From sequence record OZ335963.1: DNA of 64,000 bases; one strand, 5' to 3'. The stretch comes from a phage. Below, one piece after another: positions 41,466 through 51,829 of this stretch. The position numbers and the translations under genes are program-made. Within the stretch, counting starts at the first letter, position 1. Every line of letters starts with the position of its first letter. The notes below the pieces were generated by a model, which was not told where the DNA came from, did not search any database, and saw only the letters and a list, made by a program, of their open reading frames with translations.

Positions 41466-41520
41466 GTAATTATGAATATACTATCACAATTTTAGGAGAA
41501 AGTAAACTGCTATTTACCTT
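41466..41520 (-). promoter_or_regulatory. early promoter
   Basis: Minus-strand GTTTAC...TGTGATAGTATATTC. Confidence 0.5.
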
Positions 41521-41812
41521 TAATTACTTTAGCTGCTTCGATAGCCGCTTGCTGAAGGTCGTCCATAGACATACCGAATTTAGAAGCAAAGTTATCAATT
41601 TTCTTTTCGACAGCATTCAAAGGCTTGGCCTGTTTACCTTCATTAGCGCCAGGAAGAGCGAGAATACGCTCTTTGTCAATATAAAGGCTTACAAGTTTCT
41701 TACGGTCTTTATCGGACAAATCATGAAATGAATGAGCCTTTTTATTTATAGCGGCTTCTAATTTACTCGCAGTTACGCGGGCTTCAGTGATAAATTCTTG
41801 ATAGGTTTTCAT
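41510..41812 (-). CDS. ipII: internal protein II
   Basis: 100 aa with capsid targeting sequence MKTYQEFITEA. Confidence 0.85.
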   Translation of the reverse strand: MKTYQEFITEARVTASKLEAAINKKAHSFHDLSDKDRKKLVSLYIDKERILALPGANEGKQAKPLNAVEKKIDNFASKFGMSMDDLQQAAIEAAKVIKGK

Positions 41813-41853
41813 ATGTTTCCTTTAAATGTAAATAGGCCTAAGTATCGGCCTTA

Positions 41854-42429
41854 TTAATTACCACGGGCTGCATTAGCAACGGCATAAGCATACTGAACAT
41901 TAGCGTCTTTAAACGTACCTTTAGAGGTATCTATTTCTGCCTTAAAGCCGCCTTTAGCCATAACATCGGCGAATTCTTTACGGAAAGCCATTGCATCAAG
42001 ACCTTTCCATGTTGATTTGTGCTTGGCGAATTCAAGACCAGCGTAGTTGACAGCTTTAGCCAATTTATTATCAATGACCCATTTACCGGCTTTAGGCACA
42101 AACTTCGGACCTTTTTGTTTAGAGAACAGTTTTAAATTCCAGCGACGAAGATCACTATCGGCTTTAACAAAAGCTGCGTCTAAGTTACTAGCAACAACAT
42201 CTTCAATATGAGCAAATTTAAGTCCGTCAACTTCAATATTTAGATCGTTACGCCAGCGAAGTCCTTCCCAAGCGAAAGCTTTAAAATCAGAAGCTTTTGT
42301 GGCTAGATATCGTTCAAGCGGAGCAGTTTTAGGGTCAAAGCCGTTTCCTCGGTAAGTCCACTCATCTTTATTAATGCCTTTGGCCTTTTCCGCAGAAGCT
42401 TCAGCGATAAATTCTTTATACGTTTTCAT
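41854..42429 (-). CDS. ipIII: internal protein III
   Basis: 191 aa with capsid targeting sequence MKTYKEFIAEA. Confidence 0.85.
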   Translation of the reverse strand: MKTYKEFIAEASAEKAKGINKDEWTYRGNGFDPKTAPLERYLATKASDFKAFAWEGLRWRNDLNIEVDGLKFAHIEDVVASNLDAAFVKADSDLRRWNLKLFSKQKGPKFVPKAGKWVIDNKLAKAVNYAGLEFAKHKSTWKGLDAMAFRKEFADVMAKGGFKAEIDTSKGTFKDANVQYAYAVANAARGN

Positions 42430-45313: not shown

Positions 45314-45907
45314 TTATTTCAGAGAATTAATGTATTCCTGAACATCGGCAGAGGTAGTTTCAACCCCAGAAATATTACCGTTAAAGGTTTCAACTCGAGC
45401 AAGGGTATCTTCAATATCAACCTTAGTCAGTGCTGCAATTTCAACTACATCATCAGCAGTACTAATTCCAAGGGCATTTGCTGCACGAGTTTCACGGATA
45501 TATTCCAATTTAACCGCAAGTTCTTGACGAGCATCATCTAACTCAACTACTTTCTTGGCGATTTCAATTCGCATTTCAGCATAACCGTCAGCCTTAGTAG
45601 TCAACTGCTCAGCTGTTCGACGATATAGTAAACCGAGTTTAGCATGCATTGTTACATCTTGGCCTTCGGAAAGAAGTTTACGAATTTCACGCTCTTTTGA
45701 TTCGGCCTGTCGATTCTTTTCGATAACAAGTTCACGAATACGTTTTTCTTCGTTAATAGATTTAACAGAAGCAGTTTTTAGATCTTTAATTTTATCAAGT
45801 AGTTTTGCTGCTGCAGCAGTATACTGTTCTTCGACAGATAGATTTTTAGCCATAGCAGAACCAAGTTTAGTGCGAATAAACTCAACAATTTTCTTCAGTG
45901 TGTTCAT
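45314..45907 (-). CDS. coiled-coil protein, possibly PspA/IM30-like
   Basis: 197 aa, largely helical/charged; N- and C-terminal segments loosely resemble PspA; family call tentative. Confidence 0.5.
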
Positions 45908-46482: not shown

Positions 46483-46507
46483 AAAAAGCCCTATCATTTA
46501 GATAGGG
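46483..46507 (-). terminator. rho-independent terminator
   Basis: CCCTATC-UAAAU-GATAGGG stem followed by CUUUUU, just after the stop of ORF 46516-47079. Confidence 0.6.
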
Positions 46508-46515
46508 ATTTAAAA

Positions 46516-47079
46516 TTATTTACCTAGTTTAGTTATTATAGCTTCGGCAGCAGCTTTTAGCTTAGATGCGGTGTTAATACGATTTTTAATTTCAGTATAC
46601 GCATCGCCAAGAACATCAAGGCTATCAGAATAAACACTTACACTATTGCGTTCGCTATTTGAAATAGAACCTTTAGTTTTACGATCAAAATCGGTGTACA
46701 CGTCTTGAAGATCACGGGCTGCCTTCTTTGCATCATCCAATGCGTCAAGAGCTTTATTTAAAGCATTAACATATTTTTTAGTGTCAAACATATTCTTAGA
46801 AATTTTAACAGGTGCACGTTCAGGAGTAGCTAATGCAGATTTAGGAACCTGAGCGCCAGATGCCAGTTTCTTAGAAATTTTGAAAAATGCTTTATTGAAT
46901 TTATTTTCTTGACTCATCGTAAAAGAACTATTATCGATGTTATACATTTCAATAGCTTTAGCTTTCCACTTAAGAAAATCGCCGCGGTCTTTTGGGTCTA
47001 ATTGGAAGAATACTTTAGTAAGATCTGCTTCAGATGGTAATTTTGCTGCTTCGGTTAAAAATTCGGCATAGGTTTTCAT
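46516..47079 (-). CDS. internal-protein-like (capsid targeting sequence)
   Basis: 187 aa starting MKTYAEFLTEA, the prohead-protease cleaved targeting signal shared with IPII/IPIII. Confidence 0.6.
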   Translation of the reverse strand: MKTYAEFLTEAAKLPSEADLTKVFFQLDPKDRGDFLKWKAKAIEMYNIDNSSFTMSQENKFNKAFFKISKKLASGAQVPKSALATPERAPVKISKNMFDTKKYVNALNKALDALDDAKKAARDLQDVYTDFDRKTKGSISNSERNSVSVYSDSLDVLGDAYTEIKNRINTASKLKAAAEAIITKLGK

Positions 47080-47168
47080 TTAAAATCCTTGAAATAATTT
47101 ATCGGTTGGTTATTAATTATTTATTACTTTGTTATTATCCGTAACAGCATTCTATATGTGATTCAAAC

Positions 47169-47197
47169 TAAAAAGCCCCAACCTTTTGGTCGGGGCT
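47169..47197 (-). terminator. rho-independent terminator (copy 1 of 34-bp repeat)
   Basis: GCCCCGACC-AAAA-GGUUGGGGC followed by U5. Confidence 0.7.
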
Positions 47198-47204
47198 AAG
47201 AATG

Positions 47205-47678
47205 TTATTTGATTTGTTTAGCAGACCAAATGCGGTCTTTAATAATTTTTTGGATGTCTTCAACATACTCAAGAGAGTGAACATGTGGATTATCTTTGAA
47301 ACTATAAGCACGGGCTAACTTTTGGCCTTCGGTTTTGATTACTAAAAGCTCTTTAAGGATAGCTTCATATTTAGCAATAATTCCTTTAACGATATTTTTT
47401 TCTTGTGCCGCTTTAGGATCTGCTTTAGGAGCAGGTTTACCCGAAGCCTTTGCAAAAGCAGCGCCAGTAGCAACTAGACTTTTCCAGGCCATACTAACTG
47501 CATTTCCCGTAAATCCTTCTGCTTTCATGTCGCGAGCAAATTGGAATCGTGATTCGTCAGAAGCATCTTTATAGGAATATTTACCCGCTGCAATGGCTGC
47601 TTTTGCGACAGCTTGAATTTCGGTGCTAGATGCTTCATTTAACACCGCTTCATTTAAAAATTGAGCATATGATTTCAT
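47205..47678 (-). CDS. internal-protein-like (capsid targeting sequence)
   Basis: 157 aa starting MKSYAQFLNEA; late promoter upstream. Confidence 0.6.
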   Translation of the reverse strand: MKSYAQFLNEAVLNEASSTEIQAVAKAAIAAGKYSYKDASDESRFQFARDMKAEGFTGNAVSMAWKSLVATGAAFAKASGKPAPKADPKAAQEKNIVKGIIAKYEAILKELLVIKTEGQKLARAYSFKDNPHVHSLEYVEDIQKIIKDRIWSAKQIK

Positions 47679-47718
47679 CTTATTTCCTGTTTTAATTCGT
47701 GGATTTAATATACTACTG

Positions 47719-47726
47719 TATTTATA
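47719..47726 (-). promoter_or_regulatory. late promoter TATAAATA
   Basis: Exact TATAAATA on the minus strand about 40 nt upstream of the 47678 start. Confidence 0.5.
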
Positions 47727-47727
47727 C

Positions 47728-47756
47728 TAAAAAGCCCCAACCTTTCGGTCGGGGCT
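47728..47756 (-). terminator. rho-independent terminator at the end of the tRNA/stable-RNA transcript (copy 2 of repeat)
   Basis: GCCCCGACC-GAAA-GGUUGGGGC followed by U5. Confidence 0.7.
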
Positions 47757-47759
47757 AAG

Positions 47760-48072
47760 CCTTGCGGCAACCTTGTCGGGGTTCCACCTGCTAAGGCAAG
47801 TGTTTGTACGAAACGCCGGGATTTGAACCCGGTTATTAAGTAGTTGACGCTACTCAATATTTTTAAAAGGCCATATCTCGACCATATCCGAACGTTCCGT
47901 CAAAAACGCTACTCGGCTTACGGCAAAGATATTTCCTCGAATCGATAATTCTGTGCGCCGTTTCAGCTGTGATGTAAGGGGGCATTAACAGATCGTAAAG
48001 ATTTGTTAATGCCAGTCCTTACCCAGGGAACATCAGTCCGACGACTTACCGGTAGCGACCCGGTTTCTTGTT
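47760..48072 (-). ncRNA. candidate stable structured RNA(s) distal to the tRNA cluster
   Basis: No ORF; tRNA-like T-arm CCGGGTTCAAATCCCGG without an acceptor stem; 10-bp hairpin GGCATTAACA/TGTTAATGCC. Confidence 0.3.
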
Positions 48073-48148
48073 TGGTCGAGGCAGTAGGGATCGAACCTAC
48101 GACCTAGGACTTAGAAGGTCCTTGCTCTTCCTTCTGAGCTATGCCTCG
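48073..48148 (-). tRNA. tRNA-Arg (UCU)
   Basis: Hand-folded cloverleaf: acceptor CGAGGCA/TGCCTCG, anticodon loop CUUCUAA, T-arm GGTTCGATCC, CCA encoded. Confidence 0.8.
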
Positions 48149-48152
48149 TATT

Positions 48153-48227
48153 TGGCGGACATGCATGGATTCGAACCATGGACCAATTGATTAACAGTCA
48201 ACTGCTCTACCACTGAGCTACACATCC
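48153..48227 (-). tRNA. tRNA-Asn (GUU)
   Basis: Hand-folded: D-arm TAGCTCAGTGGTAGAGC, anticodon loop CUGUUAA, T-arm GGTTCGAATCC, CCA encoded; acceptor has two G-U pairs. Confidence 0.65.
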
Positions 48228-48231
48228 AAAT

Positions 48232-48318
48232 TGGTGGGGAGTGATGGAGTCGAACCACCCGAGTCGCAATGACAATGGATTTACAGTCCACACCGCTACC
48301 TCTACGGGATAACTCCCC
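48232..48318 (-). tRNA. tRNA-Tyr (GUA)
   Basis: Hand-folded: acceptor GGGGAGT/ACTCCCC, anticodon loop CUGUAAA, long variable arm, CCA encoded. Confidence 0.65.
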
Positions 48319-48331
48319 TTAATTCTTAATT

Positions 48332-48406
48332 TGGTGGCCCTGGGTGGAATTGAACCACCATCTGGCGATTATGAGTCGCTTGCTTGAACCTTCCAGCTAC
48401 AGGGCC
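48332..48406 (-). tRNA. tRNA with CAU anticodon (Ile or Met)
   Basis: Hand-folded: acceptor GGCCCTG/CAGGGCC, anticodon loop CUCAUAA, T-arm GGTTCAATTCC, CCA encoded. Confidence 0.7.
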
Positions 48407-48407
48407 T

Positions 48408-48483
48408 TGGTGCTGATTGACGGAATCGAACCGCCGACATCCTCATTACAAGTGAGGTGCTCTACCTACTGAGCTAAATCAGC
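48408..48483 (-). tRNA. tRNA-Thr (UGU)
   Basis: Hand-folded: acceptor GCTGATT/AATCAGC, anticodon stem CCTCA/TGAGG, loop CUUGUAA, CCA encoded. Confidence 0.8.
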
Positions 48484-48488
48484 AAAAC

Positions 48489-48578
48489 TGGCGGAGGCGA
48501 TAGGATTTGAACCTATGAGTCGCCGGAGCGACTGCCGGTTTTCAAGACCGGTGCATTAAACCACTCTGCCACGCCTCC
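48489..48578 (-). tRNA. tRNA-Ser (UGA)
   Basis: Hand-folded: acceptor GGAGGCG/CGCCTCC, anticodon loop CUUGAAA, long variable arm, CCA encoded. Confidence 0.8.
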
Positions 48579-48580
48579 AG

Positions 48581-48654
48581 TCTCCGCGGCAGGATTTGAA
48601 CCTGCGACATTCTGCTCCCAAAGCAGACGCTCTACCAAACTGAGCTACACGGAG
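48581..48654 (-). tRNA. tRNA-Pro (UGG), CCA not encoded
   Basis: Hand-folded: anticodon stem TCTGC/GCAGA, loop UUUGGGA; 3' end abuts tRNA-Ser with 2-nt spacer. Confidence 0.8.
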
Positions 48655-48664
48655 TAAATTAAAT

Positions 48665-48738
<74 letters not shown>

Positions 48739-48743
48739 AAATT

Positions 48744-48830
48744 TGGTGCGAGAAGTGGGACTCGAACCCACAAGGAAATCATTCCGCAGCATTTTAAGTG
48801 CTGTGCCTTTACCAATTTGACCATTCTCGC
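48744..48830 (-). tRNA. tRNA-Leu (UAA)
   Basis: Hand-folded: acceptor GCGAGAA/TTCTCGC, anticodon loop CUUAAAA, long variable arm, CCA encoded. Confidence 0.8.
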
Positions 48831-48831
48831 G

Positions 48832-48904
48832 CTGGGAATAAAGGACTCGAACCTTTGCATCTAGCAGTCAAAGTGCTATGCCTTACCAACTTGGCTAATT
48901 CCCA
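48832..48904 (-). tRNA. tRNA-Gln (UUG), CCA not encoded
   Basis: Hand-folded: acceptor TGGGAAT/ATTCCCA, anticodon loop CUUUGAC; 3' end 1 nt from tRNA-Leu 5' end. Confidence 0.8.
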
Positions 48905-50380: not shown

Positions 50381-50445
50381 TAGTTGATAGGGTAATAGTA
50401 TCACAACTAAAACCCTATGTAAACAACTTTGTGAAATATTTATTA
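50381..50445 (-). promoter_or_regulatory. early promoter
   Basis: Minus-strand GTTTACATAGGGTTTTAGTTGTGATACTATTACC. Confidence 0.6.
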
Positions 50446-50730
50446 CAAAAGATTTTTAGCAATAATCTTGAGATGTGCCGCAGAAATGTGTTTAGCTTTA
50501 AACAACGCAGTTTCTTCAGCAGGAGAGATAATGATTGTAGCACCATCCTTTTTAGCAGACCACCCATCACCTAGGTAAACAGTACCTTTGATTTCTTCGC
50601 CATCAACCAGACTAATCATTGGTTTACCTTCTCGTCCTTTATTTGCTTTAATAACTTCAGAAGTAAGAGTAGCTTCGGTAATAGTAGAAACTGGGGTAGT
50701 TGTAGAAGTAAATTCTTTAAATGTTTTCAT
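50443..50730 (-). CDS. ipI: internal protein I (IPI, anti-restriction)
   Basis: 95-aa precursor with 19-residue targeting sequence MKTFKEFTSTTTPVSTITE before Ala20; T4 position upstream of 57B. Confidence 0.75.
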   Translation of the reverse strand: MKTFKEFTSTTTPVSTITEATLTSEVIKANKGREGKPMISLVDGEEIKGTVYLGDGWSAKKDGATIIISPAEETALFKAKHISAAHLKIIAKNLL

Positions 50731-50744
50731 TTTATTTTCCTAAT

Positions 50745-50810
50745 TAATTTTGATGAGATAATGGTATCACAACTAAAACCCTGTGTAAACAGCTTTGTGA
50801 AATTATTTTA
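50745..50810 (-). promoter_or_regulatory. early promoter (duplicated leader module, copy 1)
   Basis: Minus-strand GTTTACACAGGGTTTTAGTTGTGATACCATTATC; flanking 5' leader duplicated at 51075. Confidence 0.6.
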
Positions 50811-51060
50811 AATCTTCTAATCGTTTCTTCATCTTAGAACCGTTCTTAGCGATTTCGCCTGCATCAGAGCATAATGCTAAAAGAGCTTTAACTTTAGTTT
50901 GGTCTCCTTTAAAAGATGAAGGATCGACTGCAGCAGCAAGTTCTTTAATACGAGAGAAAAGACGCTCAGCTTCAGCTAAAGCCATTCCAAGCTTTACTTC
51001 CATACCGTGGGAAGATTCAGTAATAGTAGTTTTTGTAGCAAACTCTTTGAAAGTTTTCAT
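50803..51060 (-). CDS. internal-protein-like (capsid targeting sequence)
   Basis: 85 aa starting MKTFKEFATKTTITE; 5' leader and first codons duplicated from ipI. Confidence 0.55.
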   Translation of the reverse strand: MKTFKEFATKTTITESSHGMEVKLGMALAEAERLFSRIKELAAAVDPSSFKGDQTKVKALLALCSDAGEIAKNGSKMKKRLEDLK

Positions 51061-51074
51061 TTTATTTTCCTAAT

Positions 51075-51829
<755 letters not shown>

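What the first reader, a model, noticed from the sequence alone, without database searches (positions are those of the whole stretch)
46516..47678. Two extra capsid-targeted internal-protein-like genes next to the tRNA cluster
Both ORFs (187 and 157 aa) begin with the 10-11 residue capsid targeting sequence used by T4 internal proteins (MKTYAEFLTE|A and MKSYAQFLNE|A; compare IPII MKTYQEFITE|A and IPIII MKTYKEFIAE|A in this window). The body sequences are unrelated to IPI/II/III. Proteins with this signal are packaged into the head, cleaved by the prohead protease and injected with the DNA; the characterised example, IPI*, blocks a type IV restriction enzyme. These are therefore candidate injected early effectors, possibly anti-defence. 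The 47205-47678 gene has its own late TATAAATA promoter, consistent with a virion component.
Basis: partly seen in the sequence, partly recalled or inferred. Interest (0 to 1): 0.7.

Follow-up and report, generated by a model that had tools for sequence, protein, structure and literature searches.

The report
Unnamed T4-type internal head protein pair
Two neighbouring genes of a T4-like phage carry the short N-terminal tag that sends proteins into the phage head for injection with the DNA; they belong to one unnamed family of such proteins, a known kind whose characterised members disarm bacterial restriction enzymes.

Summary
ORF-A (47079..46516, 187 aa) and ORF-B (47678..47205, 157 aa) start with MKTYAEFLTE|A and MKSYAQFLNE|A. 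This leader occurs only four times in the six-frame translation, always at an ATG ORF start; the other two are IPII and IPIII.

- The two are distant paralogues of one family (PHROG 2280, "unknown function"), found in four Tevenvirinae genera.
- The leader is the most conserved 10-column stretch of that family.
- Both mature proteins are basic and lysine-rich like IPII/IPIII. The only prohead-protease-type sites lie in the leader.
- A terminator hairpin followed by TATAAATA (ORF-B) or AATAAATA (ORF-A) precedes each gene, with no T4-type early promoter.
- The genes form presence/absence cassettes between e.8 and rnaC. T4 has neither, and a 40-nt repeat bounds the ORF-B cassette.

Packaging, cleavage and injection are inferred, not shown. 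No fold or family match suggests a target.

Published transposon data for phage Bas37 score the ORF-B orthologue dispensable. The 99%-identical ORF-A orthologue is almost insertion-free (1 of 48 sites), which is unexplained.

Verdict: a new, unannotated member family of a known kind; an anti-defence role is plausible but untested. Interest is moderate.

The parts
47205..47678 (-). ORF-B, 157 aa, leader-bearing protein of family phrog_2280. Predicted mature form is 147 aa, 16.0 kDa, pI 9.5.
   Evidence: AlphaFold2 mean pLDDT 73; present in 512 phage records, listed rows 'hypothetical protein' or unnamed
47634..47678 (-). ORF-B leader, MKSYAQFLNE|AVLNE|A: capsid targeting sequence with two LNE|A sites. 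A 15-nt tandem duplication (47657..47643 and 47642..47628) created the second site.
   Evidence: the Mosigvirus orthologue lacks the duplicated unit
47719..47726 (-). TATAAATA late-promoter motif, 41 nt upstream of the ORF-B ATG and just after the rnaC terminator T-run
   Evidence: The same motif in the same position occurs in Klebsiella phage KP1 and before Yersinia gp154; Mosigvirus has AATAAATA; T4, which lacks the gene, has no motif.
47733..47756 (-). Terminator hairpin at the 3' end of the rnaC homologue, upstream boundary of the ORF-B cassette
   Evidence: homology to T4 rnaC/rnaD/tRNA-Arg covers 47724-48118
47720..47759 (.). Upstream copy of the 40-nt direct repeat (terminator plus flank)
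   Evidence: family D4, 93% identical to 47161-47200. RB14 lacks exactly the DNA between the two copies.
47161..47200 (.). Downstream copy of the 40-nt direct repeat. It contains the ORF-B terminator hairpin (47197..47174).
46516..47079 (-). ORF-A, 187 aa, diverged paralogue of ORF-B. Predicted mature form is 177 aa, 19.6 kDa, pI 9.5.
   Evidence: AlphaFold2 mean pLDDT 59 with the same helix layout; present in 165 phage records; 185/187 identical to bas37_0243
47050..47079 (-). ORF-A leader, MKTYAEFLTE|A
47118..47125 (-). AATAAATA, a 7-of-8 match to the late promoter, 39 nt upstream of the ORF-A ATG
   Evidence: RB14 has GATAAATA at the same place. Function not shown.
46489..46507 (-). Terminator hairpin downstream of ORF-A. 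Homology to T4 resumes at 46507.
47724..48072 (-). Homologue of the T4 stable RNAs rnaC and rnaD, lying between the tRNA cluster and ORF-B
   Evidence: 90% identity to T4 rnaC/rnaD/tRNA-Arg; no Rfam family matched here
48073..48904 (-). Cluster of ten tRNA genes
41510..42429 (-). IPII (41812..41510) and IPIII (42429..41854), the canonical leader-bearing genes used for comparison
50443..51060 (-). IPI (50730..50443) and an Ip5-like gene (51060..50803), both with IPI-type long leaders and T4 early-type promoters

Best explanation
ORF-A and ORF-B are two diverged paralogues of an unnamed family of T4-type internal head proteins. The proposed mechanism has four steps; each step is marked as inferred, or as resting on established T4 biology or analogy.

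1. Each gene is transcribed late from its own TATAAATA-type promoter, inside a unit insulated by terminators (inferred from motifs).
2. The N-terminal leader (M-x-x-Y/F-x-E-F-L-x-E) directs the protein into the scaffolding core of the prohead. The prohead protease gp21 then cuts after L-x-E (established for IPIII; inferred here).
3. The basic, lysine-rich mature proteins of 16 and 20 kDa stay with the packaged DNA and enter the cell with it (inferred).
4. The most likely role is neutralising a host-strain-specific first-line defence, by analogy with the five leader-bearing proteins of known function. I put the head-packaged internal protein part at about 0.7 and the anti-defence part at about 0.35.

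The genes are gained and lost as cassettes of promoter, ORF and terminator, by recombination between repeated terminator hairpins.
For: - Leader specificity: the leader occurs only at the ORF starts of IPII, IPIII, ORF-A and ORF-B in 64 kb.
- Family: both ORFs hit phrog_2280 over their full length (E 3e-53 and 2e-60). Yersinia phage gp154 aligns end to end with ORF-A (E 3e-4) and with ORF-B (E 1e-3). AlphaFold2 gives both the same layout: leader helix, three-helix domain, disordered Pro/Lys/Ala linker, long helical hairpin.
- Leader conservation: in 12 family members that are 21-51% identical to ORF-B, apart from one 79% orthologue, the 10 leader columns have mean pairwise identity 0.53 against 0.27 for the rest. 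That is rank 1 of 165 windows. All full-length representatives found among 1.84 billion proteins start with such a leader.
- Cleavage sites: [LI]xE[AGS] sites occur only in the leader.
- Charge: mature pI is 9.5 with net charge +9 and +7, against pI 9.6-9.7 for IPIII and IPII.
- Promoter context: a hairpin followed by TATAAATA or AATAAATA is conserved in front of family members in four genera and absent from T4, which lacks the genes. There is no early-promoter repeat of the kind found before IPI, Ip5 and e.8.
- Accessory status: the locus occurs in four states, namely both genes, A only, B only, or neither.
- Literature: Ip1, Ip2 and Ip3 each block a distinct GmrSD enzyme (PMC12373910). Bas37_0260 blocks McrBC.
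- One source names a Klebsiella phage member 'Internal head protein'.
Against: - I found no virion proteomics or N-terminal data for any family member.
- No Pfam, PDB, PADLOC, BFVD or PDB-fold match suggests an activity.
- TATAAATA is not enriched in the window, and the ORF-A motif is only a 7-of-8 match.
- The Tegunavirus members begin ML.Y rather than MK[TS]Y, whereas that phage's own IPII and IPIII keep MK[TS]Y. The leader variant is therefore family-specific and its targeting ability is untested.
- Once the leader is removed, profile comparison of ORF-A and ORF-B is not significant (E 0.045).
- Functional data: bas37_0244 (ORF-B) showed no conditional fitness effect in the two host comparisons read. 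bas37_0243 (ORF-A) is nearly insertion-free, unlike ipI, ipII and ipIII in T4.
- Seven other orphan ip genes (ip4-10) gave no reproducible inhibition of the GmrSD variants tested.
Confidence: 0.65

Rival explanations
1. The proteins are packaged through the leader, but their job is structural or physical rather than anti-defence. Candidates are neutralising DNA charge, organising the prohead core, or aiding DNA packaging or ejection. That could make ORF-A important for the fitness of phages that carry it.
For: The mature proteins are lysine-rich and basic. The predicted long helical hairpins and disordered Lys/Pro/Ala linkers look more like scaffold or DNA-binding proteins than compact inhibitors. 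Lysines of the internal proteins contact DNA phosphates in T4 heads (PMC3012670). The ORF-A orthologue bas37_0243 is scored essential, with 1 of 48 TA sites hit. The family spans genera that differ in DNA modification.
Against: The genes are absent from T4 and many close relatives, and they vary as presence/absence cassettes. Disrupted alleles occur naturally in RB69 and OE5505. ORF-B is dispensable in Bas37. T4 IPII and IPIII were long given such roles and are now shown to be GmrSD inhibitors (PMC12373910).
Confidence: 0.2
2. The near absence of insertions in the ORF-A orthologue is an artefact of the method, not biology. The transposon's anti-CRISPR gene may be expressed too late or too weakly inside a strictly late, terminator-insulated unit. 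ORF-A would then be an ordinary dispensable internal protein.
For: The same method scores the known non-essential T4 late genes hoc, inh, segE, uvsW, segC and wac as essential. The authors concede that locus-dependent effects are possible. ORF-A sits between two terminator hairpins with no early promoter. Its downstream neighbours are all dispensable, so polarity does not explain the result. Natural frameshifted copies exist.
Against: ORF-B lies behind an almost identical hairpin, also has only a late motif, and yet tolerates insertions at 29 of 34 sites. The late genes soc and alt tolerate insertions in T4. The text I read does not state whether the transposon carries its own promoter.
Confidence: 0.5
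3. The leaders are relics, or recombination linkers shared at the DNA level among cassettes, and the proteins are late cytoplasmic proteins that are not packaged.
For: The region encoding the ribosome-binding site and leader forms a DNA repeat family across the ip genes (family D1). Exchange at such shared regulatory sequences is a documented shuffling route in T4-type phages (PMC2839356).
Against: DNA identity of the ORF-A and ORF-B leaders to those of IPII/IPIII is only 62-68%, so the similarity is maintained at the protein level. The leader is the best conserved part of a family that has otherwise diverged to about 25% identity across four genera. The cleavage motif is retained, and even duplicated, in many members.
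Confidence: 0.07

Closest known systems
T4 internal proteins IPII and IPIII (Ip2, Ip3)
   Same: Same 10-residue leader ending in (I/L)-x-E|A. Similar size (IPIII 181 aa mature, ORF-A 177 aa), pI 9.5-9.7 and lysine richness. Non-core genes in a variable region of the same genome.
   Different: No sequence similarity beyond the leader. The locus differs: e.8-rnaC rather than denV-e. IPIII has a T4 early-type promoter whereas ORF-A and ORF-B show only late-type motifs. The leader has Leu where IPII/IPIII have Ile. IPII and IPIII have demonstrated packaging and GmrSD targets (PMC12373910); these proteins have neither.
T4 IPI / IPI* (Pfam PF11634), inhibitor of GmrSD of E. coli CT596
   Same: Head-targeted and N-terminally processed. 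It is the model for the proposed mechanism.
   Different: There is no PF11634 match. IPI has a 19-residue leader and, per the review read, a compact fold of two beta sheets flanked by helices. ORF-A and ORF-B are predicted to be all-helical two-domain proteins.
Bas37_0260, leader-bearing McrBC inhibitor at the ipI locus (bioRxiv 10.1101/2025.11.20.689424)
   Same: An unannotated 'hypothetical protein' recognised by its N-terminal signal. It is encoded in the same phage genome (Bas37) that carries 99%-identical ORF-A and an ORF-B orthologue.
   Different: Different locus. bas37_0260 is non-essential in the reference library (15 of 15 sites hit) and is depleted on K-12 carrying type IV restriction. 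bas37_0244 showed no conditional effect, and bas37_0243 is depleted everywhere.
Orphan internal proteins Ip4-Ip10 of T-even phages (Repoila et al. 1994, as cited in PMC12373910)
   Same: Identified by the leader alone, with function unknown. They are polymorphic between close relatives.
   Different: The RB14 annotation names Ip4 and Ip5 but leaves ORF-A as 'RB14ncORF136c'; ORF-B homologues are labelled 'RB32ORF133c' in other records. This suggests the family is not among the named Ips. I could not read the 1994 paper to confirm that. PHROGs annotates the Ip1-Ip5 families as internal virion/head proteins but phrog_2280 as 'unknown function'.
PeSL promoter-stem-loop cassettes of T4-type phages (Arbiol et al. 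2010, PMC2839356)
   Same: An accessory ORF carries its own promoter and a GGGG...CCCC stem-loop terminator, and is gained or lost by recombination between repeated flanking elements. RB14 differs from the window exactly between the two 40-nt repeats.
   Different: PeSLs carry sigma-70-like early promoters. Here the stem-loop is followed by a late TATAAATA-type motif.

Membership tests
T4-type internal head proteins (leader-bearing Ip class) | N-terminal capsid targeting sequence of about 10-19 residues resembling MK(T/S)(Y/F)x(E/Q)F(I/L)xE | tested here: met
   MKTYAEFLTE and MKSYAQFLNE. The pattern occurs only at four ORF starts in the window and is conserved across the family.
T4-type internal head proteins (leader-bearing Ip class) | gp21 prohead-protease cleavage motif (L/I)-x-E followed by A/G/S at the end of the leader | tested here: met
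   LTE|A in ORF-A; LNE|A twice in ORF-B; no such site elsewhere in either protein. This is sequence only; cleavage itself was not observed.
T4-type internal head proteins (leader-bearing Ip class) | Expression at the time of prohead assembly (late promoter) | tested here: inconclusive
   ORF-B has TATAAATA 41 nt upstream, conserved in KP1 and the Yersinia phage and absent from T4. ORF-A has only AATAAATA (GATAAATA in RB14). The motif is not enriched in the window. No transcript data are available.
T4-type internal head proteins (leader-bearing Ip class) | Small, basic, lysine-rich mature protein | tested here: met
   pI 9.54 and 9.50; 26 and 20 lysines; comparable to IPII and IPIII.
T4-type internal head proteins (leader-bearing Ip class) | Physical presence of the processed form in the virion, and injection with the DNA | not testable with these tools
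   No proteomic report was found for any family member.
T4-type internal head proteins (leader-bearing Ip class) | Dispensable on laboratory hosts | tested here: inconclusive
   From published Bas37 transposon data: the ORF-B orthologue is non-essential (29 of 34 sites) and the ORF-A orthologue is scored essential (1 of 48). The method also mis-scores some T4 late genes.
IPI_T4 nuclease inhibitor (Pfam PF11634) | Match to the family profile | tested here: not met
   No hit for either ORF; the window's IPI scores 2e-53.
PHROG phrog_2280 (unknown function) | Full-length match to the family profile | tested here: met
   ORF-A E 2.8e-53 over residues 1-181; ORF-B E 1.7e-60 over 1-157; the Klebsiella and Yersinia members also match.
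Inhibitors of type IV restriction enzymes (functional class) | Relief of restriction by GmrSD, McrBC or similar enzymes | not testable with these tools
   Analogy only. No structural or sequence link to any known inhibitor.

The most novel reading that the evidence does not exclude
ORF-A represents an internal head protein that its phage cannot do without, unlike every characterised Ip. It might be a packaged protein needed against a K-12 function other than the four deleted restriction systems. It might instead be needed to counter something the phage itself brings, or for head assembly or ejection in the lineages that acquired it. The e.8-rnaC site would then be a third, late-only Ip locus with its own cassette exchange mechanism.
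Probability: 0.15. Interest if true: 0.7.

Novelty: new member of a known kind. Interest (0 to 1): 0.4.

Why it matters
All five leader-bearing proteins of known function (Ip1, Ip2, Ip3, Bas37_0260 and Alt) are delivered with the DNA. Four of them disarm type IV restriction enzymes that attack modified phage DNA. Orphan leader-bearing proteins are therefore a short, testable list of candidate counter-defence factors relevant to the host range of therapeutic T4-like phages.

This family is widespread: ORF-B occurs in 512 and ORF-A in 165 of the phage records searched, across four genera. It is almost everywhere labelled hypothetical. It also sits at a locus not covered by any internal-protein description I could find. 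Renaming it and testing it would be cheap.

The unexplained lack of transposon insertions in the ORF-A orthologue deserves a direct check, whichever way it resolves.

Tried and rejected
- Pfam, PADLOC, PDB sequence search and Foldseek (BFVD and PDB) with the ORF-B model gave nothing informative. The ORF-A model (pLDDT 59) was too weak to search with.
- With the leader removed, profile comparison of ORF-A and ORF-B was not significant. The case for paralogy therefore rests on PHROG co-membership, the bridging Yersinia gp154 and the shared predicted layout.
- I tested whether the family leader co-varies with the leaders of the bona fide Ips in a divergent genus. It does not: the Yersinia phage's IPII and IPIII keep MK[TS]Y while the family members have ML.Y.
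- Rfam has no model matching the rnaC/rnaD region, so I used homology to T4 instead.
- Literature searches for virion proteomics of any carrier phage, and for the ORF names RB69ORF148c/149c, RB32ORF133c and RB14ncORF136c, found nothing.
- Repoila et al. 1994 and the T4 genome review are not in the library. Statements about Ip4-Ip13 and about late-promoter variants therefore rest on secondary citation or on memory.
- A pseudogene or chance-ORF reading is rejected, because both genes are conserved at 95-100% in most of the records that carry them.

Full report
**What the window is.** The region is 97-99% identical to Tequatrovirus genomes such as Shigella phages sb3 and pSs-1 and Escherichia phage ime09. 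Gene order follows T4, read on the minus strand: IPIII, IPII ... e, nudE, e.2-e.8, then the locus in question, then rnaC/rnaD, ten tRNAs, trna.2-4, IPI, an Ip5-like gene and 57B.

**The observation.** ORF-A (47079..46516, 187 aa) and ORF-B (47678..47205, 157 aa) are real ATG-initiated ORFs with the quoted N-termini.
- A strict leader pattern scanned over all six frames hits four places only, all at ORF starts: IPII, IPIII, ORF-A and ORF-B.
- IPI (Pfam IPI_T4, E 2e-53) and an 85-aa Ip5-like gene at 51060..50803 carry the longer IPI-type leader. The window therefore encodes six leader-bearing proteins.
- TATAAATA lies at 47726..47719.
- The mature parts are unrelated to IPI, IPII, IPIII, Ip4, Ip5 and RB69 gp156.

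**The two genes belong to one family.**
- Both match PHROG phrog_2280 ('unknown function') over their full length, with E 3e-53 and 2e-60.
- BLASTP between them sees only the leader. Profile comparison of the mature parts is not significant.
- Yersinia phage fHe-Yen9-01 has a tandem pair, gp154 and gp153. gp154 aligns end to end with ORF-A (24% identity, E 3e-4) and with ORF-B (25%, E 1e-3).
- AlphaFold2 gives both window proteins the same layout (ORF-B pLDDT 73, ORF-A pLDDT 59). The layout is a leader helix at residues 4-11, a three-helix domain, a disordered Pro/Lys/Ala-rich linker and a long C-terminal helical hairpin.

I conclude that they are old paralogues. The sequence evidence for this is thin, and I say so.

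**Distribution.**
- ORF-B homologues occur in 512 phage records: Tequatrovirus, Mosigvirus at about 73% identity, and the N-terminal domain in Jiaodavirus (Klebsiella) and Tegunavirus (Yersinia).
- ORF-A occurs in 165 records, nearly all above 95% identity. One is a frameshifted copy in the RB69 reference, annotated as ORF149c/148c.
- A profile search of 1.84 billion representative proteins found 18 hits. Every full-length one begins with a leader of the form M-x-x-F/Y-x-E/D/S-F-L/V-x-E.
- Source names are almost all 'hypothetical protein'. One UniRef entry for a Klebsiella phage says 'Internal head protein'.
- No paper in the library mentions the ORF names.

**Is the leader functional?** All tests here are on sequence.
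- In an alignment of 12 diverse members, the 10 leader columns have mean pairwise identity 0.53 against 0.27 for the other 164 columns. This is the best of 165 sliding windows. Of seven invariant or nearly invariant columns, three (M1, F7, L8) lie in the leader.
- Sites of the form [LI]xE[AGS], the gp21 type, occur only in the leader: once in ORF-A and twice in ORF-B, where a 15-nt tandem duplication repeats LNE|A. Several relatives also have a second site a few residues on. The true mature N-terminus may therefore be the second site, as in the long IPI leader.
- The mature proteins have pI 9.5 and net charge +9 and +7, like IPII and IPIII.

**Transcription context.**
- Each gene follows a G+C-rich terminator hairpin (47756..47733, 47197..47174), and another follows ORF-A (46507..46489).
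- Directly after the first hairpin comes TATAAATA. The same arrangement precedes the Klebsiella KP1 orthologue and Yersinia gp154. The Mosigvirus orthologue and window ORF-A have AATAAATA, and RB14 ORF-A has GATAAATA. T4, which lacks the genes, has no such motif after rnaC.
- The T4 early-type promoter repeat found in front of IPI, Ip5, trna.4, e.8 and e.6 is absent here (family D2).
- Across the whole window TATAAATA is no commoner than chance (14 against 10.6). The argument therefore rests on position and conservation, and no expression data exist.

**A third, polymorphic Ip locus.**
- Relative to T4, the window carries a 1.2-kb insertion (about 46508-47723) between the e.8 terminator and rnaC.
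- RB14 has ORF-A only. It differs from the window by exactly the segment between two 93%-identical 40-nt direct repeats (47161-47200 and 47720-47759) that contain the hairpins.
- An evenly spaced sample of the 699 matching records shows all four states. Both genes are present in 128 records at 80% coverage or more. ORF-B alone is the commonest state, ORF-A alone is rarer, and some have neither.
- This resembles the promoter-stem-loop cassette shuffling described for RB49 and phi1 (PMC2839356), except that the promoter here is of the late type.

**What is known about the class.**
- Internal proteins share only the capsid targeting sequence and are viewed as a diverse set of injected defence antagonists (PMC3012670).
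- Ip1, Ip2 and Ip3 each inhibit a distinct GmrSD type IV enzyme without cross-protection. ip4-10 gave no reproducible hit on further GmrSD variants (PMC12373910).
- Bas37_0260, a leader-bearing 'hypothetical protein' at the ipI locus, inhibits McrBC (bioRxiv 10.1101/2025.11.20.689424).

**Functional data found in a supplement.**
- Bas37 is phage KarlGJung (MZ501089). Its bas37_0243 is 185/187 identical to ORF-A, and bas37_0244 has the length and spacing of ORF-B.
- In the transposon library, bas37_0244 is hit at 29 of 34 TA sites (mean about 470 reads). It shows no conditional effect in the two host comparisons I read (log2FC -0.11 and -0.30).
- bas37_0243 is hit at 1 of 48 sites (mean 0.2 reads) and is scored 'Essential'.
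- Its downstream neighbours are freely disrupted, so polarity is not the cause. The authors do not comment on this gene.
- The same method scores the known non-essential T4 late genes hoc, inh, segE, uvsW, segC and wac as essential. By contrast soc, alt, ipI, ipII and ipIII tolerate insertions.
- A method artefact tied to a late-only, insulated unit is therefore possible. It does not easily explain why ORF-B, behind an almost identical hairpin, tolerates insertions.
- Natural disrupted ORF-A alleles (RB69, OE5505) argue against strict essentiality.

I leave this unexplained.

**No clue to activity.** Pfam, PADLOC, PDB sequence search and Foldseek against BFVD and the PDB gave nothing beyond self-hits.

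**Verdict.** The finding is real. It is best described as an unannotated family of T4-type internal head proteins at a third, late-expressed cassette locus. It is a new member of a known kind, not a new kind.
- Head targeting is well supported by sequence (about 0.7) but unproven.
- The anti-defence role is plausible by analogy (about 0.35).
- The ORF-A insertion gap is the one surprising element and is cheaply testable.

Noticed in passing
window 50803-51060 (-), with repeats 50696-50818 and 51026-51148: A sixth leader-bearing gene (85 aa, MKTFKEFATKTTITE|S..., Ip5-like, phrog_3499 type) lies beside IPI. A 123-nt block holding the early promoter, ribosome-binding site and leader is repeated at 85% identity in front of both genes.
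   Followed up: partly
window 45314-45907 (-), e.6 orthologue: The Bas37 gene at the e.6 position (bas37_0240, same 594-nt length) is non-essential on K-12. It is strongly depleted (log2FC -6.49, adjusted p 0) in the first clinical-isolate comparison of the HIDEN-SEQ supplement. A knock-out plasmid was built for it, but the main text does not discuss it. It is a candidate anti-defence gene two genes downstream of the finding.
   Followed up: partly
window 47628-47657 (-): A 15-nt tandem duplication (TTAAATGAAGCGGTG / TTAAATGAAGCATCT) in the ORF-B leader duplicates the LNE|A cleavage motif. Mosigvirus orthologues have a single copy.
   Followed up: partly
L004 7429-7991 (RB69, NC_004928 73428-73990): The RB69 reference (a Mosigvirus) carries an ORF-A copy that is nearly identical, by inspection of the translations, to the Tequatrovirus one. 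It is split by a frameshift into ORF149c and ORF148c. This is either a sequencing error or a natural pseudogene, and the high identity across genera suggests recent lateral transfer.
   Followed up: partly
L009 (Yersinia phage fHe-Yen9-01, 55-90 kb): Seven ORFs in 35 kb match the leader pattern, and an eighth (gp165) has an IPI-type leader. Only two of these are annotated as internal virion proteins. Unannotated leader-bearing ORFs appear to be common in Tevenvirinae.
   Followed up: partly
window 48073-48904 (-): The cluster has ten tRNAs and no segB, against eight tRNAs plus segB in T4. The gene ARAGORN calls tRNA-Met (CAT) at 48332-48406 is annotated tRNA-Ile in the RB14 record.
   Followed up: no
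T4 data in the supplement of bioRxiv 10.1101/2025.11.20.689424: The T4 genes scored falsely essential include the contiguous block hoc, inh, segE and uvsW. This pattern may mark regions where the transposon's marker is not expressed in time, which bears on how to read the ORF-A result.
   Followed up: no
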